NCBI GenBank assembly: GCA_965113315.1
Contig: OZ220369.1
DNA from: Podarcis vaucheri
Taxonomy: Eukaryota
Direction: 5' to 3' (one strand)
DNA length: 64,000 nt
Under the pieces are notes generated by a model. It did no database searches, was not told the origin of the DNA, and saw only the letters and a program-made list of their open reading frames with translations. Below, piece by piece: positions 42,747-54,192 of this stretch (position 1 is the stretch's first letter; every line of letters begins with the position of its first letter). The position numbers and the translations under genes were made by a program.

Positions 42747-42916
42747 CTAGGTGGGGAGCGAGATGGAGCCCATCTGGCCAATGCTTAGGGAAACAGAGGG
42801 GGAGGTGTTGGCCTGGTGGAGGTGGTTCGGCTGTTGTTGGCTTGGTGAGGCTTGCTGAACAGACTGGCTGCATGCTTGCTTAGATGCGAGGAAGTCAGGC
42901 GCTGCTTCTGTAGAAC
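42747..42916 (-). CDS. DMRTC2: DMRTC2 coding exon 8 (C-terminus)
   Basis: GSTEAAPD...[21 protein letters not shown]. Confidence 0.85.
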
Positions 42917-45900
42917 CTACACAGAACAGAGAAACCCTGTTAGATCTCTAACAGTGCAGCTCAATGGCTTCTTCCCCTATTCCTACCTATACAACAACCA
43001 CACTGATCTTGTGACAGCCATTCAGACAAGCCTCCCGCAGGGTGTCAGCCTGCTATTTGTAAATACCATGTGGCTGACCTGGGTTTGTTCCAGGTCAGCT
43101 AGAAGGTAACATGATTGGAATTGCATTGCCTTCTGCCTGATCCGGTGTGAACCCAGGTCAGCTACAAGCCGTAAGTTGACACACTGCAGGAGCCCTGTAT
43201 GGATAGCTCCTAACTGGCAACACCGTAATTGCCCCTTTTGAATTCTTTCTCTCAGACACTCTGGGTACTCTGCACATCATTATGACCATGATCCTTAAAT
43301 CCCATGATTCTCAAGTTGACTGCAATGCGACTAATCCGGAATAAGTGATTTGAATATTTCTGTCTGTGTTCTGAGAAGCCCAGCTGTATGACCTCCTGTG
43401 TAACCTTTTGATACAAAGGTGATGGTGTTTAAGCAAAGGAATTCCAGCAAAGCTATATGAGATGTCTAGAGCAGGTTTCTTATTTGCACCATGGACACTG
43501 CCACTTGGTACTTCCTTGTATACGGGAAGATCAGCAGAAGATTCTCAGTTTAGGATAAAAGCAATATGGGTGTAGGTATGTTTTGGTCACTGAAATCAGG
43601 TTTCCTGATAAAGGAGAAACCTGCTGAAGCTAGTTTGCATGCATTCTTAACAATTTCTCTGCAGGGACTGTTCTTGCTAACGGTAGGAATTTTCCTATAC
43701 ATCAACAGATCAAATCCTTTTTTAAAAAACAACAACCCAAGAACCCAGCATTAATATCTACAAAGAGAAGTAAAGATCCCCTCATTCCAGATTCCATGTC
43801 TGTCTGTACATGTCCTTAACATTTTGTGCAAATTCCTATGAAAGCAAACAAATTGCTACAGGTAGCAGTGCTGCATCATGGAAGGGCATTTCCAAAATTT
43901 AAAATACTTCAGTTTTGTATAGTGAGTTTTTCTAAAAGCTCAAATGCACATATTTGCATACATTCTTTCAATAACCCTTACAACAGCCCTGAAAGGTTTA
44001 CCAATATTAGTATCATAATAACTGTTATTCTCCAGCAAAAAAAATATCTAATTTTTTTTTAAAGTCCAGTGGCTATCACAACATTTTGCAGCCAATTCCA
44101 TGTTGATTGTGTAGTGTGAAGTATTTTTGTTGTTAGTCCTGATCCCACTGCCAATCACTTTCATTAAGTTCTAGTGTGTTGTGTGAGAAAAATAAAATCA
44201 AACCTCTATATTCCTTTATATAGCCCCCAGTTACATTTTGGGTACAGGGTGCTTTCTGCACATGTCATTGCTCTTTTGGAGACACTGTTTTCAAAAACAG
44301 TTGATAACACATATTAGTCCTTCTGGCATCGATTGCAGCTGCATTGTCTATAGTGTACCTTCTGGATCCTTGCTCCCTGGCGCATTGTGGCTTCTGCCAT
44401 GTTCTTCTCTTTCCTGTCCCTTGCTGGAATGCTTTCCTTCTTGGCTCTGCTGCTGATGGCATTGTTGTGATTTCTGCCCTGGGGGGGGAACTGGCTCTGG
44501 GAAACCTTCCTGAGCTATAATGTAGGGGGTAGGATTCAACAGTGACAGCCTGGGAAGCATGTGCAGTTCCATCCCAAATGGAGTGCATGGGATGCCAGAT
44601 TGTAGGGGCACTGAAGTGACGGACACATCCATTGGTGGGACACAGAAGGGCAGAATTTGAGAGCCACTGTGAGTGGAACTGGATGGAGCAAGGACTTCAG
44701 CATTTGTCTCTGAAATCCAACCACTGTCTACAGTTTGTGGCATGCAGATGGTATGTGGCATGGAGCCTGAGGCTGTGTGGTAGGTTGCCACATTTGGGGC
44801 AAAATGGTGGTGGCTGACACTGGAAGTCCCTCTGAGGCTGGGTTTGACAGCTTGGATGCTGGAAACCATTACAGAAGTAGCCACTTGGGGTGCCCGGGAT
44901 GGAGCAATTGAGAATAGATGGACATTTTTGTACTGCTGGGGAAGAGCACTTCCATGGAGTAATGGAAGGAAAAGAGGCCCTGGGGCCTGTTCTCCATGAG
45001 CACTAGCTGACTCTGGGGACAGCTGGGTTCCTTTCAAAGCTATATCCTTGGAAGCCTTTACAGGCTGAATGTCACATGGAGGCATGTAGTATGAGGGATG
45101 CTGCTGGAAGGGACTGGCCACCCCGGGGTTGTGAAATGTTCCTGAGGGGCGTGTGAAAGCTGATGAGGCCAACAGAGCAGGTGCAGAGCTGGTGGGGGGC
45201 AGAAGACTGGAAGTGGCCAAAACGGGACCTGGCTGGGGAGCATTTCTTAGCACCATCAAGGCTTCAGCAGCCTCTTTCTGCAGCTGTTGTTCAGAAAGGG
45301 GGGAGAAGATAAACCCCCTGGTGGGCCAGACCGAAACATGAGCAGAGGAGGTTGGCTGAAGAGAGAGGGGGAGAGACTATTAACCTCATGATTAACAAAC
45401 AGACATGAACTAGATTAATGAACGTCTCAGGTACAGATTCTGCTTGTTCTTTTTGCAGAGTTTGGGGAACAGAATAAGAGCAGGGTAAATCTTGCATCCT
45501 TCTTTGCTGGTGGGAAAGAACAAAGAGACCTGCAACACCTTAAAAGACTTAACCATTGTATTATAGTATAAGCTTTTGTGGGTTACAGTCCACTTTATCA
45601 GAAGCATGAAGTGTTACCCTGGTGAGAAGGTGCTAGCTGAAGCTTCGCCCATGCAGGTAACCAGCTCATAGCTCTGGACTCCTTTTCCTCGCCAGAGTTA
45701 AGAAGAAAAAAGGAAAGTGGTAGCGGCAATAAGAATGACACAAAACCGGCCTCTGCTGCAGGACAGGTCCTCAATTTTAATCTAGCCCCAGGTTGGCTTG
45801 TGGTATGGGCACTTGCAACATGGGATATTTTAATAAAGGTTTCCGATTAGAATAGGATGGAGATGCAACTCTGGCTGCTTTCCATGTATACAGAGTGAAG

Positions 45901-52625: not shown

Positions 52626-52661
<36 letters not shown>

Positions 52662-54192
52662 CATTTATTCATACCCTGCCCATCTGTCCCATGTTTTCCT
52701 GTTCTCATAGCAGCTTACCTATGTCTCCCCTACATGGTTTGATCCCTTTTGGCTGTTTGGCTGGGTGGAGAGAGCTTGATGTGGGGCTGTCCTGAAGTTG
52801 CAGCAAACCACTGGTCAGCTTCCTCAGCTCCATCTCCTGCTGCCTGCGCAAGGCCACCTGGGCAGCCATGACCCGGCGTCTCTGCCTGGGAGGAGAAACC
52901 ATTAAATAAATAAAGAATTAAAGTGGTAGAGTGGGCAGATACAAATCACACACAAGCAAAGAGTTCTTGGCCTTTTCCCTACGATGTAACAAAACCTGCT
53001 TTTCTCCCTTTGAGGCCTTTTTTGCAGCCCTTGGCAACATTTGATGCCCTCCACTCCTGGGCTAGGCTTTGGGAAGAAGGTGTGAGGGCTCTCTGGCAGG
53101 GTCCTAAGGTCCTACTGCCTCCTTCCCAAAGCCTAGTTAGTGCTTCCTCAGCGATGGGAAGGAAGTGAGAGGGATCTAGAACCCTGCCGGAGCCTAGCAC
53201 CTCCTTCACAAAGCATGGCGTCTCGCTAGTCAGCTTTGGAAAGGCAGTGCTAAGGGTTGGGGTGGGAGCATCAAGTTTTGGCCTTGCTTTCCTCCTCCCA
53301 CGTGACAAGACCATAGCTGTCAACTTTCAGATTTGAAAATAAAGGATCAGCAGCCTCAAAAATAAGGGATCAGCAGCCTCACCTGTCCCAGGGACAGTCT
53401 ACAGGATATCTTAACAATCCAGGATAGCAGCGGGAAGCAGCGCTGGAATAAGGGAATTTCCCGCAAAAAAAGGGGGAAGGTTGACAGCTATGGACAATGC
53501 AGTGTATGTAGCCTGCTGGTTCCATGTTGAAGTACTCTTGCGGCCTACTAGGTATGAAAAGTTGGCCTGTCCTGCTTTGGAGTTTCAGATGCATATTTAA
53601 CCTTCCTGGTTCTCTAGTCATACCCTCCCAAGATTGCCTTTTTCCAGTTTTCTAAGCCATCCATGCACATTTGCATACAGATTCTTCCTCTAGGATACCA
53701 AGCAAGGAGCTGCAAGGAGTGTACTTTAAAAAGAAAAACATTGTGCCATACATCATTGCAAGTATTAATGGGCTTGCTGCGGAGCTAGCAAAGCACAAAG
53801 GGGAGAGGTAGTACTTGCAGCTTAATATGACGAAAAAAGAAGGCCTTATTCATAAGGAAACAGTGCCACCTACTGAGACCAGCACTGTGCTACGTTCAAC
53901 ACAAATCCCCACAATGTCAGGGGCCAGCACCCACTTCCATCTTGCTTTCCCACCAGACGTACAGGATCAGGATACATTTTTCACACTGGCACCCCTGGAA
54001 CTGGCAAGTGTGCTTGTGGCCTTTCAGTGGGACTCGGATGCCATGATTGCGGCAGCGGGCACAGGTTGGAAAGCGTACGATGGCGGGGAGCGCATAATCA
54101 TCTTGGGTGCTGCTGTCATCTGTGGTGGAGTCTGAGGGGGAGCACCGCATGTTTGGTGCTGCTCCAGCGTCAGGATCCTCATTGTCTCCCAT
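42747..54192 (-). CDS. DMRTC2: Doublesex- and mab-3-related transcription factor C2 (DMRT7) orthologue, 8 coding exons, 673 aa
   Basis: complement(join(42747-42916,44359-45355,46624-46699,49002-49119,50029-50194,50915-51012,52719-52885,53963-54192)); 2022 nt, in phase. DM domain [10 protein letters not shown]...[42 protein letters not shown] and the C-terminus [17 protein letters not shown] all parallel mammalian DMRTC2 (recalled GKEN, LQQEAAEALVGL, PSVALHIGRLGSISLLS). Confidence 0.88.
44359..45355 (-). CDS. DMRTC2: DMRTC2 coding exon 7 (997 nt, Pro/Ser/Gln-rich)
   Basis: PTSSAHV...[16 protein letters not shown]...KDPE; open frame of 332 codons; donor G|GTACAC. Confidence 0.82.
45515..45615 (-). 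mobile_element. Penelope-like remnant with decayed hammerhead-like motif
   Basis: Reverse strand reads CTGATAAAGTGGACTGTAACCCACAAAAGCTTA, i.e. CTGAnGA and GAAA cores each with one mismatch. Confidence 0.5.
46624..46699 (-). CDS. DMRTC2: DMRTC2 coding exon 6
   Basis: [26 protein letters not shown]; long polypyrimidine tract + cag; CAG|GTATTT; phase 2 to 0. Confidence 0.68.
47311..47680 (-). mobile_element. L2 LINE 3' fragment inserted in an older hAT-like element (47201-47887)
   Basis: Nearly identical to 40003-40350; long (TAA)n tail; flanks CAGGGATAGGAA...TTCCCCACTCATG with (T/C)TCT(G/A)GAT TSD. Confidence 0.85.
49002..49119 (-). CDS. DMRTC2: DMRTC2 coding exon 5
   Basis: [15 protein letters not shown]...PANLP; ctgcag / AG|GTATTT; phase 1 to 2. 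Confidence 0.72.
49189..49422. mobile_element. Tc1/mariner (Tigger-like) MITE
   Basis: CAGTGGTACC TIRs, TA TSD; same family as 1355-1585. Confidence 0.85.
50029..50194 (-). CDS. DMRTC2: DMRTC2 coding exon 4
   Basis: ECSWLPLPH...[20 protein letters not shown]...; phase 0 to 1; proline-rich like the DMRTC2 middle region. Confidence 0.8.
50915..51012 (-). CDS. DMRTC2: DMRTC2 coding exon 3
   Basis: [11 protein letters not shown]...RAARK; tacag / AAG|GTGAGG. Confidence 0.8.
51937..52102. mobile_element. Tc1/mariner-type MITE
   Basis: TIRs CCGTATTTTTTGC / GCGAAAAATACGG with TA flanks. Confidence 0.8.
52627..52660. repeat. (AAC)n microsatellite
   Basis: About 11 AAC units. Confidence 0.9.
52719..52885 (-). 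CDS. DMRTC2: DMRTC2 coding exon 2 (DM recognition helix)
   Basis: [22 protein letters not shown]...GDI; cccag / G|GTAAG. Confidence 0.93.
53312..53492. mobile_element. hAT-type MITE
   Basis: Perfect TIRs CATAGCTGTCAAC / GTTGACAGCTATG; imperfect 8-bp TSD GACAAGAC / GACAATGC. Confidence 0.78.
53963..54192 (-). CDS. DMRTC2: DMRTC2 coding exon 1 (DM zinc module)
   Basis: MGDNEDP...[45 protein letters not shown] start; acceptor just upstream (exon starts 54203); donor CT|GTACGT. Confidence 0.93.

What the first reader, a model, noticed from the sequence alone, without database searches (positions are those of the whole stretch)
42747..54192. Intact reptilian DMRTC2/DMRT7 with a protein almost twice the mammalian length
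Seen: eight phase-consistent exons give an uninterrupted 673-aa DM-domain protein. Motifs outside the DM domain ([14 protein letters not shown], terminal [15 protein letters not shown]) point to DMRTC2 rather than DMRT1 or DMRTB1. Known: DMRT7 has often been described as mammal-specific and is needed for male meiosis and sex-chromatin handling in mouse; human DMRTC2 shares the 19q13.2 region with CIC and PAFAH1B3. Inference: the gene is of amniote age and is retained in a lizard with no mammalian XY body, so it may have an ancestral meiotic role.
Basis: partly seen in the sequence, partly recalled or inferred. Interest (0 to 1): 0.75.

Follow-up and report, generated by a model that had tools for sequence, protein, structure and literature searches.

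The report
Lizard DMRT7, older than amniotes
This lizard has an intact, unusually long copy of DMRT7, a gene mice need for male meiosis; reptile copies are already published, but look-alike proteins in a newt and in sharks make the gene likely far older than reptiles and mammals, and one conserved motif suggests it likely acts as a gene repressor in germ cells.

Summary
Eight GT-AG exons on the minus strand give an open 673-aa DM-domain protein; a second exon-4 donor gives 676 aa. It is 96-97% identical to lacertid proteins already annotated as DMRTC2. Motifs, trees and neighbours (CIC, PAFAH1B3, a GBP gene) support DMRT7 orthology. Reptile DMRT7 is in print (PMC6737965; bioRxiv 10.64898/2026.07.14.738559, which makes the same XY-body argument), so the headline is known. 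The extra ~285 residues are one spacer in exon 7 that splits the C-terminal DMRT-like domain; it is homologous across squamates, turtles and alligator. 'Amniote age' is probably too young. A newt and five sharks/rays carry proteins with the same DM signature and both diagnostic motifs (one shark model lacks the last), and sharks keep a DMA domain. Amphioxus and a hemichordate have weaker candidates. The best-conserved motif outside the DM domain, AAEALMVL, fits the SIN3-binding AAxxL pattern. A CpG-rich stretch upstream holds two ATTGG boxes spaced as in the mouse Dmrt7 promoter. Expression, splicing, SIN3 binding and shark synteny were not tested. No earlier finding of this scan mentions DMRTC2/DMRT7.

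The parts
53963..54192 (-). Coding exon 1: start codon and first part of the DM zinc-binding domain; splice acceptor 11 nt upstream (first exon base 54203), so a non-coding exon lies further upstream
   Evidence: PF00751 E 6e-17
52719..52885 (-). Coding exon 2: DM recognition helix
   Evidence: P0001 40-96 aligns to DMRT1 in PDB 4YJ0
50915..51012 (-). Coding exon 3 (GRKEN motif; KEN is also in turtle, alligator and mammal rows)
50020..50194 (-). Coding exon 4, two donors (50029 gives 673 aa, 50020 gives 676 aa); its end aligns by position with the DMA domain of shark proteins, but a DMA remnant is not shown
49002..49119 (-). Coding exon 5
46624..46699 (-). Coding exon 6
44359..45355 (-). Coding exon 7 (997 nt, 332 codons): start of the DMRT-like domain, then the sauropsid spacer that makes up the extra length
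45248..45283 (-). [12 protein letters not shown] motif, fits the SIN3-binding AAxxL pattern
   Evidence: invariant AAEAL..L in 19 of 19 rows; 101 of 109 C2-signature proteins of 340 aa or more; pattern from PMC9890238
42747..42916 (-). Coding exon 8 with C-terminal motif [14 protein letters not shown] (42756-42797) and TAG stop
   Evidence: PF15791 positions 66-118, E 6e-6
55400..55700 (-). Candidate promoter: CpG observed/expected 0.92; tandem ATTGG boxes at 55485-55481 and 55444-55440, third ATTGG at 55632
42302..42371 (-). Two AATAAA hexamers (42366-42371, 42302-42307), candidate polyadenylation signals
   Evidence: read from the sequence
33272..37342 (-). Neighbour downstream, same strand: PAFAH1B3 coding exons
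28293..28640 (+). Neighbour: CIC (capicua) exon
   Evidence: PDB 7M5W, E 4e-14
61909..63245 (+). Neighbour upstream, opposite strand: two exons of a guanylate-binding protein (GBP) gene
   Evidence: PF02263 E 4e-20 and 2e-19

Best explanation
This is an intact lacertid DMRTC2/DMRT7 gene, likely inherited from the ancestor of jawed vertebrates, whose protein is predicted to bind DNA through its DM domain and likely represses genes in meiotic germ cells by recruiting the SIN3-HDAC complex through its AAEALMVL motif. Shown: the open eight-exon frame, the complete DM domain, the two C-terminal motifs shared with mammalian DMRT7, and a ~285-residue longer spacer between them that is homologous across squamates, turtles and alligator. 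Inferred: (1) transcription from a CpG-rich promoter about 1.25 kb upstream of the ATG, driven by NF-Y at two ATTGG boxes as in mouse; (2) germ-cell expression, from orthology and that promoter; (3) SIN3 recruitment, from motif likeness; (4) the spacer as a proline/serine/glutamine-rich linker with short conserved docking motifs; (5) orthology of newt and shark proteins, so that the mouse XY-body role is a late use of an older germ-line repressor. My odds: identity 0.97, jawed-vertebrate age 0.85, germ-line role 0.7, SIN3 binding 0.5.
For: Frame and splice sites. Twelve squamate hits to exon 7 at 58-95% identity, nine named DMRTC2. PF15791 matches the start of exon 7 and exon 8, with the spacer between. 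DM-to-AAEAL distance is similar across clades (medians 250-343 aa) while the AAEAL-to-C-motif spacer differs: eutherians 52-56, marsupials 58-61, monotremes 64, cartilaginous fish 114-180, crocodilians 242, squamates 327-353, newt 490. A squamate-only spacer profile scores turtle 140 and alligator 19 bits against shuffle maxima of 8 and 6. Exon 7 identity to the 9 other full-length squamate models outside lacertids and Anolis is 60-74%, similar to exons 2-5; simulated neutral drift to 55% identity or below left 1 of 500 frames open or fewer. Profiles built from mammals alone score 5 of 5 sharks/rays 15-27 bits and the newt 18 bits on the AAEAL block (100 other DMRT proteins: -0.2 or less), and 4 of 5 sharks/rays 12-19 bits and the newt 23 bits on the C-terminal block (controls 2.4 or less). 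DM trees keep reptile, mammal, newt and shark proteins apart from DMRT1/2/3/A; AU tests reject sharks+DMRTA (p 0.0015), sharks+93B-type (p 8e-5), reptiles+DMRT1/6-type (p 0.0002). GBP flank as described for anole and alligator DMRT7. ATTGG pair with the mouse orientation and 41-bp spacing is the only one in the window, 0.27 expected per window. AAxxL repressive domains bind and need Sin3A (PMC9890238). A human azoospermia allele, p.E296Afs*4, frameshifts at the RQLQQE stretch just before this motif (one patient, PMC13065313).
Against: No reads were laid, so neither the junctions nor testis expression are shown. The 13-row vertebrate C2 clade has support 87/84, not starred, from 60 columns; in the larger tree the bootstrap had not settled and two long rows fell inside the group. 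Synteny of shark and newt genes was not tested. AAxxL is short, and the same paper finds it flexible and not generally conserved; no SIN3 binding was tested. The C-terminal motif is missing from the Anolis and Mauremys X2 models. Two Podarcis isoforms (307, 313 aa) leave the frame before the AAEAL motif. The promoter pattern occurred somewhere in 24 of 100 shuffled windows, and no transcription start was mapped. The true neutral distance between the lizards was not measured, so the selection argument is not a dN/dS. The window's DM domain differs from four lacertid relatives at two positions (S41F, N61H).
Confidence: 0.62

Rival explanations
1. DMRT7 proper is restricted to amniotes or tetrapods; the shark proteins are a separate DMA-bearing paralogue that shares ancestral motifs.
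For: Sharks have an intact DMA domain (PF03474 E 1e-9 to 1e-12) that no tetrapod C2 row has; one is named 'A2-like' by NCBI; vertebrate C2 clade support is only 87/84; the DMA-remnant test in tetrapods was inconclusive; PMC6737965 Table S1 lists no dmrt7 for elephant shark or little skate.
Against: Both mammal-derived motif profiles hit sharks and no other DMRT class; AU tests reject grouping with DMRTA or the 93B-type rows; sharks have their own DMRT3 and another DM type in P0075; the newt protein is named DMRTC2 by NCBI and has both motifs.
Confidence: 0.13
2. The gene is DMRT7 but in reptiles it is not a meiotic repressor: it works in somatic or pre-meiotic cells, or activates genes through the long spacer.
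For: No expression data here; the spacer is conserved in sauropsids and absent from mammals; platypus ovary expresses DMRT7 (preprint passage).
Against: Promoter layout like that of mouse Dmrt7; the AAEAL motif is kept from sharks to mammals while the spacer turns over.
Confidence: 0.18
3. The long form is a gene-model artefact: the real transcript skips or shortens exon 7 and gives a protein of mammalian size or less.
For: Junctions not checked with reads; short 307/313-aa isoforms are annotated in two Podarcis species; an alternative acceptor at 45283 is possible.
Against: Exon 7 is open over 332 codons, alignable end to end in 12 of 12 squamate hits and homologous to turtle and alligator; only one weak donor-like site lies inside it.
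Confidence: 0.05
4. It is a DMRT1 or DMRTB1 duplicate, or a decaying pseudogene.
For: Only one DMRTB1-type row was in the trees, and its label is recalled; two private DM substitutions.
Against: PF15791 present and the Dmrt1 domain not hit; AU p 0.0002; intact frame, all eight zinc ligands present.
Confidence: 0.02

Closest known systems
Reptile DMRT7/DMRTC2 (PMC6737965: alligator; bioRxiv 10.64898/2026.07.14.738559: anole, alligator, Podarcis raffonei, C. aspera; NCBI models such as XP_053253908.1)
   Same: Same gene: 96-97% identical to lacertid models, same exon chain and length, GBP flank.
   Different: The passages I read do not describe the long exon-7 spacer, the AAxxL motif, the promoter likeness or copies outside amniotes.
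Mammalian DMRT7/DMRTC2 (mouse; PMC1853120)
   Same: DM signature, KEN, AAEAL and C-terminal motifs, eight coding exons with AAEAL in the second last, tandem ATTGG boxes upstream.
   Different: Mammalian spacer is 52-64 aa against about 340 here; XY-body localisation and the knockout phenotype are known for mouse only.
DMRTC2-like proteins of cartilaginous fish and newt in NCBI/UniRef (P0028, P0029, P0031, P0037, P0049, P0155, P0056)
   Same: DM signature and both C-terminal motifs (P0037 lacks the last, P0155 is a 98-aa fragment).
   Different: Sharks keep a DMA domain; spacers do not align with the reptile spacer.
Amphioxus 'DMRT A2-like' (P0094 and cluster) and Ptychodera 'DMRT1A-like' (P0175)
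   Same: ERRR-type DM helix, DMA domain, AA(E/H)AL-x-x-L-x-x-SP motif; group with shark C2 at 97/92 on DM+DMA.
   Different: No C-terminal motif; motif scores are not significant alone.
SIN3-interaction (AAxxL/SID) repression domains (PMC9890238)
   Same: AAEAL fits AAxxL exactly; the paper cites EAVEAL (TIEG2) and AIEAL (TET1) as Sin3A-binding relatives.
   Different: That paper does not mention DMRT proteins (0 occurrences); binding untested.

Membership tests
DMRT family | DM domain with six Cys and two His zinc ligands and a recognition helix | tested here: met
   C44, C47, H50, H59, C63, C68, C70, C73 present; PF00751 E 6e-17 on exon 1
DMRTC2/DMRT7 | C-terminal DMRT-like domain (PF15791) | tested here: met
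   Split in two: exon 7 start 22.5 bits, exon 8 27.1 bits (cut-off 27); whole P0001 37.5 bits
DMRTC2/DMRT7 | Groups with mammalian DMRT7 in a DM tree | tested here: met
   P0001 and other reptiles used as stand-ins for the window protein; separated from DMRT1/2/3/A by starred branches
DMRTC2/DMRT7 | Eight coding exons, AAEAL region in the second last | tested here: met
   mammalian exon count from PMC7689362 Table 2; human c.137 in exon 2 and c.862 in exon 8
DMRTC2/DMRT7 | Reptile synteny: GBP and RPS19 flanks | tested here: inconclusive
   GBP flank met; RPS19 not looked for, and no genome is held beyond the window
DMRTC2/DMRT7 | Tandem NF-Y (CCAAT) boxes in the proximal promoter | tested here: met
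   Sequence only: same orientation and 41-bp spacing as mouse; start site not mapped
DMRTC2/DMRT7 | Expression in pachytene spermatocytes; needed for male meiosis | not testable with these tools
   Known for mouse; no reads laid here
DMRTA1/A2, DMRT3, dmrt93B | DMA domain | tested here: not met
   No PF03474 hit in P0001 or 10 other tetrapod C2 proteins at E up to 10; remnant test inconclusive
DMRT1 | Dmrt1 domain (PF12374) and DMRT1-type DM sequence | tested here: not met
   Not hit; AU p 0.0002 for reptiles + DMRT1/6-type rows
DMRTB1/DMRT6 | DMRT6-type DM sequence | tested here: inconclusive
   One row only (first DM of P0075), label recalled, long branch; the window's DM matches DMRT7 rows far better
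SIN3-interaction motif (AAxxL) | AAxxL core | tested here: met
   AAEAL
SIN3-interaction motif (AAxxL) | Binds a SIN3 PAH domain and represses | not tested
   No SIN3 sequence was in hand; PDB search of the motif region found only designed repeat proteins
DMRT7 orthology of shark and newt proteins | DMRT7-specific motifs and tree position | tested here: met
DMRT7 orthology of shark and newt proteins | Conserved gene neighbourhood and intron positions | not testable with these tools
   No eukaryote genomes held

The most novel reading that the evidence does not exclude
DMRT7 is an ancient deuterostome class of DM + DMA + SIN3-binding repressor, present in hemichordates, amphioxus, sharks and salamanders. 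Tetrapods lost the DMA domain, sauropsids carry a conserved ~290-residue spacer, mammals have the shortest form and co-opted it for the XY body, and the NF-Y promoter layout has lasted since the amniote ancestor. SIN3-HDAC recruitment through AAEAL would explain the missing H3K9 methylation and HP1-beta on sex chromatin in Dmrt7-null mice.
Probability: 0.35. Interest if true: 0.7.

Novelty: already known. Interest (0 to 1): 0.42.

Why it matters
The reptile copy itself confirms published work. What matters more is the deeper age: if shark and newt proteins are orthologues, a gene long described as the one mammal-specific factor essential for meiosis predates jawed-vertebrate diversification, and its sex-body role is a late co-option. 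The conserved AAEAL motif gives a single, cheap test of how DMRT7 changes sex chromatin, which the mouse knockout paper left open, and a human azoospermia frameshift removes this motif.

Tried and rejected
No whole genome is held for the window. Sequencing runs: no RNA holder listed (24 rows, 18 marked only as a guess of RNA); no reads were laid, so splicing and expression stay open. An AlphaFold job on a 66-row alignment had not finished; no structure claim is made. DMA remnant in tetrapod DMRT7: single-sequence profile scores were all under 4 bits; the profile-profile best window with the shark-based DMA profile was lizard residues 196-240 (best of 43, probability 5%), but a DMRT3/A-based profile preferred another window; inconclusive. 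Reptile spacer against newt, 4 sharks/rays and 6 mammals: no score above shuffles, so gain in sauropsids versus loss in mammals is not decided. Exon 7 is not built from repeats (one 15-nt pair). PDB search with the AAEAL region hit only designed repeat proteins. The 649-aa model using acceptor 45283 was set aside because relatives keep the 24 residues. DMRTC2-PAFAH1B3 fused models (P0009, P0012, P0014) were read as merged annotations or read-through: the window has AATAAA sites after exon 8 and a separate CpG-rich stretch before PAFAH1B3. Literature searches (any two of several terms) were uninformative. dN/dS could not be computed: no coding DNA of relatives was in hand.
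Full report
OBSERVATION. The gene lies on the minus strand. Eight exons (54192-53963, 52885-52719, 51012-50915, 50194-50029, 49119-49002, 46699-46624, 45355-44359, 42916-42747) have AG and GT ends and matching phases and give 673 aa with no internal stop. Exon 7 is 997 nt and open; 1 of 20,000 shuffles was. A second exon-4 donor at 50020 gives 676 aa, and both forms are annotated in lacertids. The 676-aa model matches P0313 at 656 of 673 and Podarcis raffonei P0001 at 649 of 676 residues, so the window is from a lacertid lizard. 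No reads were laid; the junctions rest on sequence and on other species' models.

IDENTITY. Exon 1 hits the DM domain (E 6e-17). The DMRT C1/C2 domain PF15791 is hit twice, at the start of exon 7 (profile 45-82) and in exon 8 (66-118). A search with exon 7 among longer proteins returned 12 hits, all squamate, nine named DMRTC2. Neighbours are CIC, PAFAH1B3 and a GBP gene; the 2026 preprint names GBP1 as a flank kept in anole and alligator. That human CIC and PAFAH1B3 lie on 19q13.2 is recalled; the human DMRT7 position on chromosome 19 is. Mammalian DMRT7 has eight coding exons with the region before AAEAL in the second last, as here. In DM-domain trees, with P0001 as stand-in, reptile proteins fall with mammalian DMRT7 and apart from DMRT1, 2, 3, A1 and A2; grouping them with DMRT1/6-type rows is rejected (AU p 0.0002). 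The labels 'DMRT6-type' and '93B-type' are recalled from DM signatures; one search did not confirm the 93B names. P0078 was dropped because my pattern missed its DM domain.

WHERE THE LENGTH COMES FROM. The distance from the DM domain to AAEAL is similar in all clades. The spacer from AAEAL to the C-terminal motif is 52-56 aa in eutherians (38 of 39 rows measurable), 58-61 in marsupials (5), 64 in monotremes (3), 114-180 in cartilaginous fish (5), 242 in crocodilians (2), 327-353 in squamates (17) and 490 in one newt (3 isoforms). A profile of 14 squamate spacers scores turtle 140, Anolis 110 and alligator 19 bits, above all 200 shuffles of each; newt, four sharks/rays and six mammals do not exceed shuffles. 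The spacer is therefore a sauropsid feature, not a peculiarity of this lizard. Exon 7 is 60-74% identical to nine non-lacertid squamate models (Anolis 41%), like exons 2-5. Simulated neutral drift gives 66% identity with 6 of 500 frames open, 55% with 1 of 500, and 46% with none, so purifying selection is inferred; the real neutral distance was not measured. Whether sauropsids gained or mammals lost sequence is undecided.

AGE. The same searches returned a newt protein named DMRTC2 (P0056) and proteins of five sharks/rays plus a stingray fragment. Profiles built only from 20 mammals score the AAEAL block at 15-27 bits in 5 of 5 sharks/rays and 18 in the newt. Of 101 controls, one scored 28: it is the Sceloporus DMRTC2 fusion P0012, misfiled by my pattern; the other 100 scored -0.2 or less. 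The C-terminal block scores 12-19 bits in 4 of 5 sharks/rays and 23 in the newt, controls 2.4 or less; it is missing from the Chiloscyllium, Anolis and Mauremys X2 models. The controls are not independent of each other. In a 30-row, 60-column tree the 13 vertebrate C2 rows form one side of a branch at 87/84 (not starred), 98/92 with amphioxus; sharks+DMRTA (p 0.0015) and sharks+93B-type (p 8e-5) are rejected. I named these groups after seeing the sequences. Sharks keep a DMA domain that tetrapods lack; a remnant in tetrapods is suggested by alignment position but not shown. An amphioxus gene and a Ptychodera gene have the ERRR-type DM helix, a DMA domain and AA(E/H)AL; on DM+DMA (25 rows, 100 columns, LG+G4) they join shark C2 at 97/92, Ptychodera on a long branch, and they are the top 6 of 104 non-C2 DM proteins for a non-mammalian AAEAL profile, at 4.5-6.1 bits, E 0.05-0.15 (five of the six are the one amphioxus gene). 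I put jawed-vertebrate age at 0.85 and deuterostome age at about 0.5. No copy from birds, teleosts, frogs, lungfish, coelacanth or lamprey appeared among the rows listed (73 of 73, 120 of 723, 150 of 2427); that is not evidence of absence.

HOW IT LIKELY WORKS. The DM domain has all eight zinc ligands and aligns with DMRT1 in its DNA complex, so DNA binding is predicted. AAEAL..L is invariant in 19 of 19 aligned rows and present in 101 of 109 C2-signature proteins of 340 aa or more. It fits AAxxL, which in a fly screen marked repressive domains that bind and need Sin3A; the same paper warns the motif is flexible (PMC9890238). Mouse Dmrt7 mutants form an XY body but lack H3K9 di/trimethylation and HP1-beta on sex chromatin in diplotene (PMC1853120), which SIN3-HDAC recruitment could explain (inference). 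A human frameshift allele just before the motif was found with a DM missense allele in one azoospermic man (PMC13065313). About 1.25 kb upstream of the ATG lies a CpG-rich stretch (observed/expected 0.92; 0.14-0.64 in the 12 other 300-nt windows) with two ATTGG boxes 41 bp apart on the sense strand. The mouse promoter depends on two such boxes at -48/-44 and -7/-3, the same spacing and orientation (PMC2974168). This is the only such pair in the window; 0.27 are expected per window and 24 of 100 shuffles had one somewhere, so its weight comes from its position. Nearby AACCGTT and TGACGT resemble MYB and CRE sites (recalled). That lacertids are ZW, with no unpaired sex chromosomes in males, is recalled.

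WHAT IS KNOWN. PMC6737965 (passages, one part of the text, supplement part 2) calls DMRT7 specific to mammals and reptiles, lists alligator dmrt7, lists none for elephant shark or skate, left DMRT7 out of its trees, and leaves four amphioxus and two Saccoglossus genes unassigned. bioRxiv 10.64898/2026.07.14.738559 (abstract, introduction, methods section, passages; supplements not seen) reports DMRT7 in four reptiles and argues its first role was not sex-chromosome silencing; 'shark' and 'amphibian' do not occur in its main text. Its Table S2 could list more species. PMC7689362 (passages) still scores anole as lacking dmrt7. PMC7096497 (passages) on a newt transcriptome does not mention dmrt7. 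PMC1853120, PMC2974168, PMC9890238: passages; PMC13065313: first part of the text. I found no paper placing DMRT7 in sharks, newts or amphioxus, or linking it to SIN3: 'dmrt7'+'shark' gave 1 paper, the one above; 'dmrtc2'+'cartilaginous' 0; 'dmrt7'+'amphioxus' 1, seen as a listing only; 'DMRTC2'+'SIN3A' 4, three seen as listings of unrelated transcriptome studies. The library lacks most subscription journals. NCBI already names the newt protein DMRTC2 and several shark proteins C2-like, so these are annotated, if not discussed.

VERDICT. The finding as written is real and already known. The additions here (sauropsid spacer, probable jawed-vertebrate age, candidate SIN3 motif, conserved promoter layout) rest on sequence comparison and are testable. 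Interest 0.42.

Noticed in passing
window 33272-54192: DMRTC2 and PAFAH1B3 are tandem on one strand; fused gene models exist for Phrynocephalus (P0009), Sceloporus (P0012) and the turtle Mauremys mutica (P0014), which implies the same adjacency across sauropsids and possibly read-through transcripts.
   Followed up: partly
window 54010-54072 (coding exon 1): Two DM-region residues differ from four lacertid relatives: S41F and N61H. The naked mole-rat model P0024 also has F at the first position.
   Followed up: partly
window 55454-55463: ATGATAG followed by GC between the two ATTGG boxes would give the MIG-SHT N-terminal extension annotated in Podarcis muralis X1/X5 if spliced to the 54203 acceptor; here the donor would be GC, not GT.
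   Followed up: no
proteins P0018, P0020, P0033, P0148, P0286-P0290, P0310: Several reptile models named 'uncharacterized' or 'proline-rich protein 36-like' are the C-terminal halves of DMRTC2, split from their DM exons; this may explain why the gene was missed in reptiles.
   Followed up: partly
protein P0075 (Pristiophorus): A shark model with two DM domains, a divergent (DMRT6-like, label recalled) one followed by a DMRT3 one; may be a merged model of an unusual tandem pair.
   Followed up: no
window 40002-40348 and 47333-47680: Two 348-nt copies of one interspersed repeat, 97% identical, each beside an (AAT)n run; one lies in intron 5. An older copy is at 36053-36307.
   Followed up: no
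window 4909-5332 and 5658-6072: A ~430-nt tandem duplication (89% identical) upstream of the CIC region.
   Followed up: no
window 62103-62735: A 210-codon open frame inside the GBP intron that looks like the end of a LINE reverse-transcriptase gene (recalled likeness).
   Followed up: no
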